From the human T2T-CHM13v2.0 reference genome, Homo sapiens, in assembly GCF_009914755.1 (NCBI RefSeq), contig NC_060925.1: a DNA stretch of 64,000 bases, one strand, 5' to 3'. Shown piece after piece: positions 3,001 through 62,734 of the stretch (positions are counted from its first letter, which is position 1; each line of letters opens with the position of its first letter). Both the position numbers and the translations under genes were made by a program. Under the pieces are notes generated by a model. The model ran no database searches. It had not been told where the DNA came from and saw only the letters and a list, made by a program, of their open reading frames with translations.

Positions 3001-3545
3001 TTTATCCAGTCCACTGTTGATGGACTCTTAGGTTGATTCAATGCCTTTACTATTGTGAAGAGTGCTGCCGTAAACATACATGTGTCTTTTCGAGAAAATG
3101 ATTTCTTTTCCTTTGGATAGATACCTAGCAGCGGGATTGTTGCGTTTAATGGTAGTTCTATTTCTAGTTCTTTGAGAAATTTCTATAATGTTTCCCAAAG
3201 GGTTGGACTAATTTACATTACCTCTAACAGTGGATAAGTGTTCCCTTTTCTACGTATCTTTGCCAACATTTGATATTTTTAGACTCTGTGATATGGCCAT
3301 TCTGACCAGCTTGAGATAGTATCTCTGTGGTTTTAATTTGCATTCCTCTGGTGATTATTGATGTTGAGCATTTTTTCATATTTTTGTTGGCCACTTTTAT
3401 GTCCTTTTGAGAAGGGTCTGTTCATGTTCTTTGTCCATTTATCATTTTTTTTATTTTTGAAAGGAGGTGTTTTTTATTAAAAATAAGGAGCTAATACAGT
3501 TTTGATTTAGTATTATGCATAAAGTGAAGATTAGTGGTTTATTAG

Positions 3546-3810
<265 letters not shown>

Positions 3811-32416: not shown

Positions 32417-35392
32417 TTTCTTTAATTTTTTTTAACGATGTTTTTGTATTTTTCAAAGTATACATCTTGCATTTCTTTTGTTAAATTTATTTGTTTTGTT
32501 CTTTTTAATTTCATTTCAGACTACTTATTGCATTCATAGTGTTTTAGAGTCCACATTCCCTCTTGACTGTCACTAAGTTTTTTTTTTTCTGTTTTTGAGA
32601 GGTTTCTATCAGAATTTTGCAGATCAGAGATGACGGACATGTCAAACTGTCTAATATTACCAACCCTCCCCATTTATCAGATCAGGATCCTTTTGGTGAT
32701 TCACCATGCAGGGAAATCTAGTATCTAAGGCTCAAAAGGTGATACTGTTTTACATAGGCAGTAACATTTTATTGCTACATAATAACTACATATTTATGGA
32801 GTACCTGTGATATTTTGATACGTGCATACAATGTGCAGTGATCAAATCAGGGTGTTTAGGGTATTCATCACTTCTAACATTTATTATTTATTTGTGTTTG
32901 GAACATTTCAAGTCTCTTCAAGCTCTTCAGAAATATTCAATACATTATTGTTAACAGTGCTATTGAACACTGGAACTTATTCCTTCTATCTAAAGACAGT
33001 AACATTTTAAGTATAGTCATAAGGTTACAGAAGGATAAAGTGTGTATAGGGAAAATTCCCTACAAGATGAGAATTTCATTCCTTACTCTTAGTAATACAG
33101 GTCTTCAAACATGCCAAGGATATTCCTCCCTTGGAGCTTTGAACATGCACGTCTGTGGTTATATTGCTCTCCCTGCAAATTATTCCTAAAAGAGGCTTGC
33201 CCTGACCATTCAGACTAAAATAGCACCTCTAGTACTCTCTATCTCCAACCCTATTATTATTATCTTGGCCCTTATCACTCTCTGACACTATACTGTATAC
33301 TCTTTTGCTTGTTCGTTTATTATCCACCACTAACTACAATATAAAATCTGTGAGAGGTAGGATCTTTGTTTGCCACTATAAACCTAGTGCATGGTACAGT
33401 TCCTGGTGCATAATAGGTGCTCAATAAATCCTTTGTTGAATGCATAAATATATTAGGTGCTGAGAAAATTTATTTATTCAAAGATCAATTTACTGCATAG
33501 AATAGGCCAGGTGGTTTGACATTTATTCAATAGCCAACATATGGGACCTAGGATGTACATATGCAAGTGTGTGTGTGTATGTGTGTGTGCATCTGCATGT
33601 GTACTTGGATGTACTGCAGAGAACATCTATGTAGCTAAGTAGTATAAAGCACTTGGGCTCCAGAGTTAAACTGGAGTTTGAATCCTCATTAGTGGTTGCC
33701 AGCTGTACACACTTGGGCAGATCATTTAACCTAGTCTGTAGGGCTCAATTTCCTCATCTCTAAAGTAGGGATTGTAATCATATCTACTTCATAGGGTTCT
33801 TGATGTAAATATTAAATAACATAGAACATGGAAAGCATTTAGCAGCACCTAGTTCATAGCAGTGCTTGATAAATGTTCGCTGTTGCTATTTGGGGGCACT
33901 ATGCATTTTCTGAACATTTCTGAACAATGTTTACTAAATATATGTAGTACCCGTTTTCAAGTGTATTTAGATGCTTCTCTGGGGATGAAGAAATATAAAT
34001 TAAATATAGTACAGTATTCACAACAGTTTTCTGTCCTTTTTGTCTAGTCAGGAGTTACAAAAAGTATAATGAAATACTTTCATATGGCTGGGGTGTTTAT
34101 GAAAATTTTTTACCTAAACAAACAATTGTCATATTAGTTTACAATATTCATGAGGGCAAAGGCCTTGTCTTCCTTATATTTCTCTGTATCTCTACCACCT
34201 GGTACGTGTGATAGACAATAAATACTTGTGTGTTTATTGTTTGTAAATGAATAAATGAAAAAATATTCACATTGTTGAAAACCACTACTCTGGATAGTCA
34301 GTGGGTGCTTATCACTGGCTTGATTATGGCAACATTAACAAAAAAGTGCAGTATTTTAGAAACTAGGTTTCAAGACTCTCAACCTTTCAGTGGCCTTGAA
34401 CTATCCAGAGAACACTTTATGGGTTAAAATTGCTAAATGATAACAGAGAAAAATGGGAGCCAGAGTTGTCCACCTCTCCAGAGGATGAGAGCAAACAATC
34501 CTGCAGCAGATACCGTGTGATTGGTCACACGAGGAAAAATCTGGCAGCCTTAAGATTACTTTGCAGCGGGGGACTCCCACCATCATGCTCAAGTGTGTAG
34601 ATGGGCACACCAAAACACACACATGCAGGTGCCCTCCACTTTACACAAGAAGCAAATGTAAATGAATCTTGTTTTCAGTGATTTAGAGAAACAATTTAAG
34701 TGAGCCATTACTCATCTGCTTCTAAAAGCAAAAACTCCTTCTCTGGTGGTAGTATTTGCACTCTCATTTGTAAATGTTGGAAGCTGAAAGTTTTGTATTT
34801 GAGTTTGCTTTAAGATTCACACATCTGTGTAAATGGACCTTCTGTTGTTGGGGGGAGAATTTGGATTTTCTTTATAGATAGAGTTGGCAATTTTTTAGAG
34901 AGAAGCATTTACTGCTAAGTCATGAGAAATAATCACTGGTGCATAATTAGAGAGAGGAACAGGAAGAAGAAATGGTGAGCTGGATGTAGGGTCATGCCCC
35001 ATTTAGTAACTGTTAGTTTCCCACATAGGAAATACTTCTTTTTAGCTTCCAGATCCCACTCCAATCTGAGTGTGTGATGTTGGCAAGTGAGGCAGAGAGT
35101 GTGACTCGGCTCACCCTCTATTGGGACAAGAGTTCACAGTAAATGTCATTCAACAGTGACTTGGTCTGGGGGTACAGGATATATTAATATTGAGAAGATA
35201 AATACACTAACTTTGTTTAGAGAATTATCCCCCAAGCTTAGAAGTCCCAAAGAAAGCATGTTATGTCACTTCCAGAAAAGTCTCAGGCTCCTCTGCTTGT
35301 GTGACCTTATCAGGTCCTGAACTCAGCTTGTGTCTATAAGAGGGGACAGGTCCAGCTTGGCTGGCTAATTACTTTTACTTTTTTCACTGCAG

Positions 35393-35534
35393 TTTATTCA
35401 GGATGATAACATGGAGAAGCTTGAGGAAATTATTGAAAAATACCCTCGTGCCTTCCCTTTCTGGATTGGGCCCTTTCAGGCATTTTTCTGTATCTATGAC
35501 CCAGACTATGCAAAGACACTTCTGAGCAGAACAG
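35393..35534 (+). CDS. CYP4X1: CYP4X1 exon 2 (142 nt)
   Basis: ctgcAG|TTTATT...ACAG|gtaag; FIQDDNMEKLEEIIEKYPRAFPFWIGPFQAFFCIYDPDYAKTLLSRT. Confidence 0.97.
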
Positions 35535-35765
35535 GTAAGAAGAGGGGGAAAGTTCTGGGACCTATTCCTCCTAGAAGTGAAATGCATAAAACCCATAGGC
35601 AAGATTCCAAAGCAAAGATTGGTTTGGGGCCTTTAAGAGACACAGCAGCAAGTATGGGGAGGTGACAGGTTTCCTACCAATACTGAAGGGGATTCCCATA
35701 TCCTCCCCAGTCCCTTGTCTTGTTCAGGTATGCATGGGCACGTTGAAGTCGGTATAACTTAAAGC

Positions 35766-36381
35766 CTAGCTGGCATTACCAGACTTGCCAGGCAAGGCTT
35801 CCCTTGGCCTCTGTGGGTTTTATGACTTCAGTGTCAGCAACACTTCCCACTCCTACCCCTGGTCTCGAGCATAAGTCTCAAGAGGGTGGGAAATCAGCAG
35901 TAACTCTACCTCTGCTGGTTCAGTATGAAAGCCTGAATGCTAGATCATTAATTTACCCATCAGACCTCTTGATAGTGATCCAAATTTTAGCTTTCCTCTC
36001 CACATATTTCTCAACTATGTCCCCTTTTCAGGTATGAGTCATCTACTTCCCCACCCAATCCTTTTTTAAGGCTTTCATTGTGGATTATTTCATAGCATAA
36101 TACTAAAATGTCCAGTTTTTGCCCTGTCAACTTTGTAAAAGGAAGGTTTTTATATTCCAGTCTTCCCTGTGCATTGTATCCACCACTCCTAATAAAACCT
36201 AATGAAAGAAAGAGCCTTGCCCTGACTATCTCCATGTTTCCAGTCCCCCTGCTCTGATTTGTGTCATGAGACTTATGCTCGAGACCAGGGGTAGGAGTGG
36301 GAAGTGTTGCTGACACTGAAGTCATAAAACCCACAGAGGCCAAGGGAAGCCTTGCCTGGCAAGTCTGGTAATGCCAGCTAG
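35766..36381. repeat. Perfect 115-bp inverted repeat (35766-35880 / 36267-36381) around a 386-bp spacer
   Basis: Base-by-base reverse-complement comparison gives 115/115; ORFs 35804(+) and 36011(-) share ASVGFMTSVSATLPTPTPGLEHKS. Confidence 0.97.
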
Positions 36382-36838
36382 TCATGTTCACCTGTTAAGG
36401 ACAAGAACAGTAGAACACCTCCACTTTGGGGTTCACAAAAACACCAAGAGGCATTGACACCTCAATACATGGTGTCTACTGACCTCTGCTCTGATCGTTA
36501 ATTTTCCTTCTGTAAAGGATATATGTTGTCCCAACTACGGTTATGGAAACTTTGCAACCCTCAGGCAAACTCTGTTCTTGTTGGAGGAAGTGTAAACAAG
36601 GGAATAATCAGGGTTTCTGTACTTGTCTGCCTCATAGGGCTTGCTGTTCTCTGAAACTGAGCCAAGACTAACACAAGTCTTTCCCCAGGCTGCCAAAGGC
36701 AGCAGGAAGTAAGACCTGGGCTCTCTTTTTCTCACTTTTTGTGGTTGGTGCAGAAATGCAGAAAACCGTCACCAACTTGAACTGATAATGAATGCTCCCT
36801 CTAATGATGTCTTTTGTTTCCTCTGCTTGACTCTGCAG

Positions 36839-36883
36839 ATCCCAAGTCCCAGTACCTGCAGAAATTCTCACCTCCACTTCTTG
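36839..36883 (+). CDS. CYP4X1: CYP4X1 exon 3 (45 nt)
   Basis: ctgcAG|ATCCCAAG...CTTG|gtatg; (D)PKSQYLQKFSPPLL(G). Confidence 0.95.
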
Positions 36884-37032
36884 GTATGTATGTGCAAATG
36901 AGAGGTATAACCCACTCTCATTCAAAGTCCCCTTTCCATAGTAGAGCATGCCAAAGAAACTGAAATCTGAATTCAAAAGCACAAAGAGTGCAAGGTAGAG
37001 CTATACTGAACGTTATCTAGGGGAAAGATTGA

Positions 37033-37469
<437 letters not shown>

Positions 37470-40452: not shown

Positions 40453-40544
40453 TGAAATTTTAAAAGTTCAGGTTGACCGATAGGTCTTAAGCTAGGGGCT
40501 AGGTGCTTAAGACCTATCGGTCGACCTGAACTTTTAAAATTTCA
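40453..40544. repeat. 92-nt near-perfect hairpin (40-bp arms, 12-nt loop)
   Basis: 40453-40492 vs 40505-40544 match 39/40 as reverse complements. Confidence 0.97.
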
Positions 40545-52999: not shown

Positions 53000-53369
<370 letters not shown>

Positions 53370-53382
53370 TAATAGGTATTTA

Positions 53383-53688
53383 GGCCAGGCACAGTGGCTG
53401 ACGCATATAATCCCAATATTTTGTGACACCAAGGTGGGAAGACTGCTTGAAGTTAGGAGTCTGAGACTAGCCTGGGCAACATAGGGAGACCCTGTCTTTA
53501 CAAAAAAAAAAAAGAGAGAGATAGCCAGGCATGGTGTTGCATGCTTGTATTCCTGCCTACTTGGGGGACTGAGGCAGGAGGATCACTTGAGCTCAGAAGT
53601 TCAAGGTTACCGTGAGCAATGTTCACGCCACTGCTCTCCAGCCTGATTGACAGGCCAGACCCTGACTCTAAACAAAAACAAAAAACAA
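53383..53688 (+). mobile_element. Alu (AluJ-like), intron 9
   Basis: ggccaggcacagtggctgacg...gcctgggcaacatagggagaccctgtc...tail. Confidence 0.9.

Positions 53689-56275: not shown

Positions 56276-56829
<554 letters not shown>

Positions 56830-58330: not shown

Positions 58331-62734
<4,404 letters not shown>

What the first reader, a model, noticed from the sequence alone, without database searches (positions are those of the whole stretch)
35766..36381. Perfect 115-bp inverted repeat enclosing a 386-bp cassette in CYP4X1 intron 2: candidate invertible segment and long dsRNA stem
Seen: 35766-35880 and 36267-36381 are exact reverse complements (115/115), including an undecayed CpG (ctcgag). I recognise no repeat family or TSD; both outer ends read CTAG. 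Every transposon relic in the window is visibly diverged, so perfect identity needs a very recent origin or ongoing homogenisation. Inference: the spacer may flip recurrently by recombination between the arms (a micro-inversion hard to see in short reads) with conversion keeping the arms identical. In pre-mRNA it would form a 115-bp perfect duplex (ADAR/dsRNA-sensor substrate) that loops out nearly half of the 1.3-kb intron before the 45-nt exon 3.
Basis: partly seen in the sequence, partly recalled or inferred. Interest (0 to 1): 0.8.

Follow-up and report, generated by a model that had tools for sequence, protein, structure and literature searches.

The report
Young inverted duplication in CYP4X1 intron
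A 115-base stretch of unique DNA sits twice, in opposite directions and letter-perfect, inside one intron of the human CYP4X1 gene; it is most likely a fairly recent copying slip of a known kind, not a genetic switch.

Summary
Window 35766-35880 and 36267-36381 are exact reverse complements (115/115) around a 386-nt spacer. Together they make 616 nt, 47% of the 1304-nt intron 2. Arms and spacer are single-copy in the 3.1-Gb genome. The same search recovers repeats at 69-90% identity, so this is not a transposon family, and there is no clear target-site duplication. RNA folding puts the whole 115-bp stem in the minimum-energy and centroid structures.

Under neutral rates, zero differences in 115 bp has probability about 0.35-0.55 at 6.5 My and 0.04-0.16 at 20 My, so homogenisation is not needed. 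A similar single-copy inverted repeat 450 kb away (about 120-nt arms, 445-nt spacer) has decayed to 89% identity.

Best reading (0.6): a one-step inverted duplication by template switching, younger than about 20-30 My. It is probably a neutral intronic passenger that forms an ADAR-type duplex in pre-mRNA. Flipping, gene conversion, editing and population status could not be tested: no ape or other human assemblies were available. It is a new member of a known kind, of modest interest.

The parts
35766..35880 (+). Left arm of the inverted repeat (115 nt, 53% GC, one CpG at 35866-35867).
   Evidence: It is the exact reverse complement of 36267-36381. In the own genome it matches only itself and the other arm at E<=10. 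It is pyrimidine-rich on the + strand, like the 100 nt before it and like the spacer.
35881..36266 (+). Spacer (386 nt, 40% GC). On the sense strand it carries AATAAA at 36191-36196 and a TTTTCAG|GTATGAGT splice-site-like string at 36025-36039.
   Evidence: Read. It is single-copy in the own genome (1 first-look candidate, itself). It has no similarity elsewhere in the 64-kb window (blastn word size 7). There is no Rfam match. The two ORFs scanned that overlap it (71 aa and 124 aa, of 3 listed) have no Pfam match.
36267..36381 (+). Right arm of the inverted repeat (115 nt). It is purine-rich on the + strand, unlike its neighbours, which weakly suggests it is the inserted inverted copy.
   Evidence: establish the arm. 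Purine fraction is 0.60, against 0.40 (left arm), 0.41 (spacer) and 0.45 (last 100 nt of the left flank).
35535..36838 (+). CYP4X1 intron 2 (1304 nt), the transcribed host of the structure.
   Evidence: The boundaries come from the hub's RefSeq table. The GT...AG ends were read. The RNA fold of the whole intron keeps the full 115-bp stem in both the minimum-free-energy (-535.8 kcal/mol) and centroid structures.

Best explanation
This is a real, single-copy inverted duplication. One 115-nt arm is an inverted copy of the other, laid down 386 nt away in a single replication or repair event. The event would be a template switch of the 'four-point' type, or equivalently a small inversion with a staggered break that duplicates one end. 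It happened recently enough (less than about 20-30 My, quite possibly within the hominid or human lineage) that no substitution has yet hit either arm. Nothing maintains the identity; it is simply young. It sits as a passenger in CYP4X1 intron 2. When the gene is transcribed, the arms should pair into a 115-bp perfect duplex that is nuclear, removed with the intron, and a likely ADAR substrate, with little or no effect on the gene. Shown here: existence, exactness, uniqueness in the genome, no protein or RNA family match, and the predicted fold. Inferred: the mechanism of origin, the age, which arm is the copy (weakly the right arm), editing, and neutrality.
For: The arms are exact, 115/115, with sharp boundaries. 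Arms and spacer are single-copy in the 3.1-Gb genome (the first look found only the locus itself). The same search found 4476 first-look candidates, with scored hits at 69-90% identity, for an Alu-like control, and 69-90% hits to an old dispersed repeat in a second control. Neutral expectation makes zero differences unremarkable for ages up to about 20 My. A decayed analogue exists in the only 200 kb of control sequence examined: single-copy arms of about 120 nt at 89% identity with indels, and a 445-nt spacer (L014:3099-3220 / 3666-3783). This fits birth and decay without homogenisation. A second unique hairpin-forming inverted repeat lies in the same gene (40453-40544). The four-point template-switch model is documented to create perfect inverted repeats de novo in human and chimpanzee, with either an unchanged or an inverted spacer (passages of PMC5453318). 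It is also reported to have produced over 6,000 hairpins in primates, enriched in introns (abstract of PMC10710096). The left flank, left arm and spacer share a pyrimidine-rich composition and only the right arm deviates; this is a weak hint of a simple inverted insertion. The RNA fold shows the full stem, and the arm-arm duplex energy is -250.9 kcal/mol.
Against: No outgroup or second human haplotype was available, so the ancestral state, the age and even fixation in humans are unknown. The published template-switch events I could see are short: the filter was 14 bp or more, the events are described as local, and the microinversions in PMC8755829 are 17-33 nt (abstract). A 115-nt copy laid 386 nt away is larger than those. 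There is no clean microhomology at the inner junction, only 2 matching bases after a mismatch (and my reading). The composition argument for which arm is the copy is weak: the skews lie within the background spread. The age calculation rests on recalled mutation rates. Perfect identity is also what gene conversion would give.
Confidence: 0.6

Rival explanations
1. The 386-nt spacer flips recurrently by intrachromatid recombination between the arms, and arm-to-arm gene conversion keeps them identical. Orientation could matter, because the spacer carries a sense-strand AATAAA and splice-site-like strings.
For: The inverted geometry and 100% identity are what such a system needs. AATAAA at 36191-36196 and TTTTCAG|GTATGAGT at 36025-36039 lie on the sense strand only in the present orientation. 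Inversions that recur between inverted repeats are documented in humans for much longer repeats (title and abstract of PMC3961182).
Against: Identity needs no maintenance at this length. At 115 bp the arms are below the roughly 200-300 bp usually quoted as the minimal efficient processing segment in mammals (recalled; PMC2583991 was seen only as a search listing). The nearby single-copy inverted repeat of similar size has diverged to 89%, so it was not homogenised. No alternative transcript uses the spacer in the hub's annotation.
Confidence: 0.12
2. A non-autonomous DNA transposon (MITE-like, about 610 bp) with long terminal inverted repeats, possibly Tc1/mariner-type with a TA target duplication.
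For: The arms look like long terminal inverted repeats. If the element is taken as 35770-36377, each end is flanked by TA.
Against: It is single-copy in the genome at a sensitivity that recovers 69-90% identical repeats (against controls 35, 47). There is no 8-bp (hAT-type) or TTAA duplication. The 'TA' is part of a self-complementary CTAG, so it says nothing. Human DNA transposons are thought to have been inactive for tens of My (recalled), which one search shows is hard to reconcile with 115/115 identity (P about 0.002-0.025 at 40 My). No Dfam search was possible.
Confidence: 0.04
3. A selected RNA structure: the stem brings intron ends together to tune exon-3 splicing, or it is a hairpin precursor of small RNAs.
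For: The stem is very stable. It encloses 47% of the intron just upstream of a 45-nt exon.
Against: There is no Rfam family match. Perfect pairing with no wobble or bulge points to youth rather than a tuned structure. Long hairpin dsRNA expressed in mammalian somatic cells was only slightly edited, poorly diced and without interferon effect (abstract starts of PMC3245926 and PMC3903663, listing). No conservation data were available.
Confidence: 0.05
4. An assembly artefact, or a mutation private to the CHM13 cell line.
For: Only one assembly could be examined. One exact-pattern scan of the prokaryote genome collection for the spacer/right-arm junction found nothing, as expected.
Against: The structure is 616 bp of ordinary unique euchromatin, well inside the length of a single long read. 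Nothing in the sequence (no N, no low complexity) suggests a join. This could not be tested directly.
Confidence: 0.04

Closest known systems
Template-switch mutations under the four-point model (Loytynoja & Goldman 2017, PMC5453318; Monttinen et al. 2023, PMC10710096)
   Same: A perfect inverted copy of nearby unique sequence appears in one step and gives a hairpin-forming inverted repeat. Event types with an unchanged spacer ('3-2-1-4') and with an inverted spacer ('3-1-2-4') are both described. The resulting hairpins are enriched in introns.
   Different: The published events I could see are short and local, and the hairpins are of miRNA size. Here the copy is 115 nt and lies 386 nt from its source. 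The ancestral state that defines such an event was not available.
Inversions with inverted duplications at the breakpoints, from staggered breaks (Ranz et al. 2007, Drosophila, PMC1885836; seen only as a search listing)
   Same: A single event would leave arm, inverted spacer, then inverted copy of the arm, which is exactly the present layout.
   Different: That mechanism was described for much larger chromosomal inversions in flies. It is not shown here that the spacer is inverted relative to the ancestor.
Human polymorphic inversions mediated by inverted repeats (NAHR; Aguado et al. 2014, PMC3961182), and large X/Y palindromes with arm-to-arm gene conversion (recalled)
   Same: A unique segment is bracketed by highly identical inverted arms.
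   Different: Those arms are hundreds of bp to hundreds of kb long. Here they are 115 bp. Neither recurrence nor conversion was observed.
Long human intronic inverted repeats (Wang & Leung 2009, FEBS J; recalled, not seen) and predicted non-repetitive dsRNAs (dsRNAscan preprint, PMC11838218)
   Same: It is a unique-sequence inverted repeat in an intron that forms a long, highly paired dsRNA. [quoted passage not shown]
   Different: The stem is perfect and 115 bp long. That is shorter than the >300 bp class singled out there as possible MDA5 ligands. I could not check whether this locus is in either catalogue.

Membership tests
Template-switch mutation (four-point model) | The new segment is an exact reverse complement of nearby sequence on the same chromosome. 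| tested here: met
   The match is 115/115, with the source 386 nt away.
Template-switch mutation (four-point model) | The ancestral or outgroup sequence lacks the inverted copy, and one event explains the whole difference. | not testable with these tools
   No ape or other human assembly is held; the genome search states that the genome 'has no relatives here'.
Template-switch mutation (four-point model) | Size and range are within those of described events. | tested here: inconclusive
   The passages seen describe short, local events (17-33 nt microinversions). At 115 nt copied over 386 nt, this one is larger.
DNA transposon / MITE | Multiple related copies exist in the genome. | tested here: not met
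   Only the locus itself was found at E<=10. Positive controls recovered repeats at 69-90% identity.
DNA transposon / MITE | A target-site duplication flanks the terminal inverted repeats. | tested here: not met
   The 8 nt on each side differ and there is no TTAA. A 'TA' reading is possible only because the terminal CTAG is self-complementary.
NAHR-invertible segment between inverted repeats | Both orientations are present among haplotypes or species. | not testable with these tools
   Only a single assembly was available.
NAHR-invertible segment between inverted repeats | The arms are long enough for efficient homologous recombination. | tested here: inconclusive
   The arms are 115 bp. The threshold of about 200-300 bp is recalled; the review that discusses it was seen only as a listing.
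Palindrome maintained by arm-to-arm gene conversion | The arms are identical within a species but differ between species. | not testable with these tools
   No orthologues are held. Identity alone is explained by youth. A similar inverted repeat nearby is 89% identical.
ADAR-edited long dsRNA (editing-enriched region) | A stable intramolecular duplex of tens of bp or more in a transcribed region. | tested here: met
   The 115-bp stem is in the minimum-free-energy and centroid structures of the whole intron. z is -22. The two arms hold 22 and 32 adenosines.
ADAR-edited long dsRNA (editing-enriched region) | Clustered A-to-G mismatches in RNA-seq. | not testable with these tools
   No expression data are held. 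The literature search 'CYP4X1' + 'RNA editing' gave 5 papers, none about this locus by title or abstract start.
Known RNA family (miRNA or other) | A match to a curated covariance model. | tested here: not met
   Rfam at E<=1 over 35000-37200 gave 2 weak hits, both outside the inverted repeat and far below their gathering scores.

The most novel reading that the evidence does not exclude
The segment is a live micro-inversion. The 386-nt spacer flips recurrently between 115-bp arms that conversion keeps identical. That would make it the smallest recombination-driven invertible cassette known in a human gene. Orientation would toggle a sense-strand AATAAA and splice-site-like strings inside CYP4X1 intron 2, and so affect transcript processing.
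Probability: 0.06. Interest if true: 0.65.

Novelty: new member of a known kind. Interest (0 to 1): 0.3.

Why it matters
If outgroups confirm a single-step origin, this would be an unusually large and clean example of template switching creating a long perfect hairpin from unique sequence in a human intron. It would be useful as a calibration point for how long such copies can be. It would also be a natural 115-bp perfect ADAR substrate free of Alu sequence. It could trip up short-read mapping and variant calling in CYP4X1. It does not, on present evidence, bear on CYP4X1 function.

Tried and rejected
**Repeat family.** Three whole-genome searches (whole element, arm, spacer) and a blastn at word size 7 against the 64-kb window found only the locus itself.

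**Known RNA or protein.** Rfam gave nothing. Pfam gave nothing on 2 of the 3 ORFs of 40 aa or more that overlap the region.

**Strand-skew test for an inverted spacer.** The spacer's T/A skew sits at the 72nd percentile and its G/C skew at the 5th percentile of 304 intronic 386-nt windows. This is not decisive. The purine profile gives only a weak hint.

**Independent copy of the junction.** One exact 38-nt pattern scan of the prokaryote genome collection gave 0 matches. This carries no information.

**Rarity estimate.** Only 200 kb of control sequence could be fetched.

**Literature.**
- 'CYP4X1' + 'inversion' gave 4 unrelated papers.
- 'CYP4X1' + 'inverted repeat' gave 0 papers.
- 'CYP4X1' + 'RNA editing' gave 5 unrelated papers.
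- A six-term search with min_terms 2 was too loose to be useful for the locus.
- The ape-specific structural-variant supplements of PMC6749001 mention CYP4X1 once, for a macaque polymorphic deletion upstream of the gene. At least one of those files was cut when stored.
- The paper id I recalled for the 2018 great-ape comparison is not held.

Full report
**1. The observation**

Reading the window, the repeat finder and a direct script comparison agree. Positions 35766-35880 and 36267-36381 are exact reverse complements, 115 of 115. After one mismatch, two more bases pair, giving 118 nt at 99%. Beyond that, on both the inner and outer sides, the similarity stops.

The spacer is 386 nt at 40% GC. 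The arms are 53% GC and each holds one CpG. With the hub's exon table, intron 2 is 35535-36838 (1304 nt), so the 616-nt structure is 47% of it. Exon 3 is 45 nt.

The repeat is far beyond chance:
- As RNA or DNA, the 616 nt fold 22 standard deviations below 20 dinucleotide-preserving shuffles.
- I scanned 264 kb for exact inverted repeats with a spacer of 2 kb or less: the window plus G000:C1:46372001-46572000. The next longest arm that is not low-complexity is 45 nt, from an Alu pair.

The 'CTAG at both ends' remark is true but empty, because CTAG is self-complementary.

**2. What it is not**

*Not a dispersed repeat.* Whole-genome searches of the window's own 3.1-Gb assembly found only the locus itself and the arm-to-arm match, even at E<=10. 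I searched with the whole element, one arm and the spacer, and the first look gave 1-2 candidates. The tool warns that it is a word-based first look. I therefore ran two positive controls:
- An Alu-like stretch of the window gave 4476 first-look candidates, of which 40 were scored, yielding 51 matches at 69-90% identity.
- An old dispersed repeat in a control locus was recovered at 69-90% identity.

A blastn at word size 7 against the whole window also found nothing.

*No target-site duplication.* The eight bases on each side differ and there is no TTAA. A 'TA' can be read only as part of the self-complementary CTAG.

*No known RNA or protein.* No Rfam family matches. Two of the three ORFs of 40 aa or more that overlap the region were scanned against Pfam and gave nothing.

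A transposon or MITE is therefore unlikely.

**3. Does perfect identity need explaining?**

I computed the probability that two 115-nt copies show no difference after t years. I used rates of 0.4-0.6e-9 per site per year, with and without a tenfold CpG rate; these rates are recalled, not taken from a call. The result:

| Age | P(no difference) |
|---|---|
| 6.5 My | 0.35-0.55 |
| 15 My | 0.09-0.25 |
| 20 My | 0.04-0.16 |
| 5% level reached | 19-33 My |

Using round pairwise divergences (recalled), 115/115 identity has probability 0.25 at human-chimpanzee distance and 0.03 at human-orangutan distance.

So the arms are younger than the Alu and L1 relics around them. They need be neither 'very recent' nor homogenised.

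The only control sequence I could fetch supports this. In 200 kb some 450 kb upstream there is a structurally similar inverted repeat (L014:3099-3220 / 3666-3783). Its arms are about 120 nt and are themselves single-copy in the genome. Its spacer is 445 nt. The arms are only 89% identical and carry small indels. That looks like an older product of the same process, left to decay.

A third unique inverted repeat lies in intron 4 of the same gene (40453-40492 / 40505-40544). It has 40-nt arms, one mismatch and a 12-nt loop.

**4. Likely origin**

The closest documented process is template switching during replication.
- Passages of Loytynoja & Goldman 2017 (PMC5453318) describe the four-point model. 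In it, one event writes the reverse complement of nearby sequence into the nascent strand. Type '3-2-1-4' creates an inverted repeat with an unchanged spacer. Type '3-1-2-4' creates an inverted repeat with an inverted spacer.
- The abstract of Monttinen et al. 2023 (PMC10710096) reports over 6,000 such hairpins arising in primates, enriched in introns.
- A staggered-break inversion would give the same layout as '3-1-2-4' (Ranz et al. 2007, PMC1885836; seen only as a search listing).

Without an outgroup I cannot tell these apart. Composition gives a weak hint. The last 100 nt of the left flank, the left arm and the spacer are all pyrimidine-rich on the + strand (purine fractions 0.45, 0.40, 0.41), and only the right arm deviates (0.60). 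This is what a simple inverted insertion of the right arm would leave. A skew test for an inverted spacer was not decisive.

Two points count against an easy fit. The events I could see in print are much shorter. The inner junction also shows no clean microhomology.

**5. Likely behaviour**

Folding the whole intron as RNA keeps all 115 pairs in both the minimum-energy and centroid structures. The arm-arm duplex alone is -250.9 kcal/mol. The stem holds 22 and 32 adenosines in its two arms, so ADAR editing in the nucleus is the expected fate. That is inference from general knowledge of ADAR; no expression data were available.

Several points argue against larger effects:
- The duplex is intronic.
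- At 115 bp it is below the >300 bp class discussed as MDA5 ligands in the dsRNAscan preprint (PMC11838218, section 10).
- Long hairpins expressed in mammalian somatic cells were reported to be slightly edited, poorly diced and non-immunogenic (abstract starts of PMC3245926 and PMC3903663).

Pairing shortens the effective path across the intron from 1304 to about 690 nt. I see no reason to expect a splicing effect, but I could not test it.

At the DNA level the fold is equally strong. However, a 386-nt spacer should make hairpin or cruciform extrusion inefficient (recalled from work on inverted-repeat instability).

**6.

It remains possible, and I give it 0.12. Points in its favour:
- The geometry is right.
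- The spacer carries orientation-dependent signals: AATAAA at 36191-36196 and TTTTCAG|GTATGAGT at 36025-36039.

Points against it:
- Identity does not call for it.
- The arms are short for mammalian homologous recombination. The threshold is recalled, and the review PMC2583991 was seen only in a listing.
- The neighbouring analogue was not homogenised.

**7. Limits**

No ape genome, second human assembly, read data, RepeatMasker/Dfam library or RNA-seq was available. The age, fixation, ancestral orientation and editing are therefore all inferred.

The supplements of PMC6749001 mention CYP4X1 only for an unrelated macaque deletion, and at least one of those files was truncated.

Three literature searches found nothing about this inverted repeat in the library's main texts: CYP4X1 with 'inversion', with 'inverted repeat' and with 'RNA editing'.

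**8. Verdict**

Best reading: a young, single-step inverted duplication of unique intronic sequence, a new and rather large member of the template-switch class, and probably neutral. Interest 0.3.

Noticed in passing
window 40453-40544 (CYP4X1 intron 4): This is a second unique inverted repeat: 40-nt arms with one mismatch (a G.U pair in RNA) and a 12-nt loop. It is single-copy in the genome. The RNA hairpin is -65.8 kcal/mol with z -13. Rfam gives only generic hairpin hits to plant MIR models, far below their gathering scores. Its dimensions are miRNA-precursor-like, and it may be another template-switch product.
   Followed up: partly
window 56276-56709 and 58943-59380: This is an inverted pair of segments of about 435 nt at 97% column identity, with a spacer of about 2.2 kb, just 3' of the last CYP4X1 exon. 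By my recollection of the sequence they look like L1 ORF2 3' fragments; no call named the family. Both lie in stretches the hub lists as masked repeats. The pair is long enough to be a more credible substrate for inversion by recombination than the 115-bp arms.
   Followed up: partly
L014:3099-3783 (G000:C1:46425099-46425783): This inverted repeat has single-copy arms of about 120 nt, 89% identity with small indels, and a 445-nt spacer that contains an old dispersed repeat found at 69-90% identity elsewhere. It is a decayed analogue of the CYP4X1 structure. A separate exact 31-nt inverted pair lies beside it (L014:2809-2839 / 3459-3489).
   Followed up: partly
window 36025-36039 and 36191-36196: On the sense strand the spacer carries a polypyrimidine-AG followed directly by GTATGAGT, and an AATAAA hexamer about 70 nt before the right arm. 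No annotated transcript uses them.
   Followed up: no
window 53066-53645: Two weak inverted repeats (100 nt at 70% and 68 nt at 75%) lie within or beside a masked repeat in the intron before exon 10. They are probably an old palindromic element.
   Followed up: no
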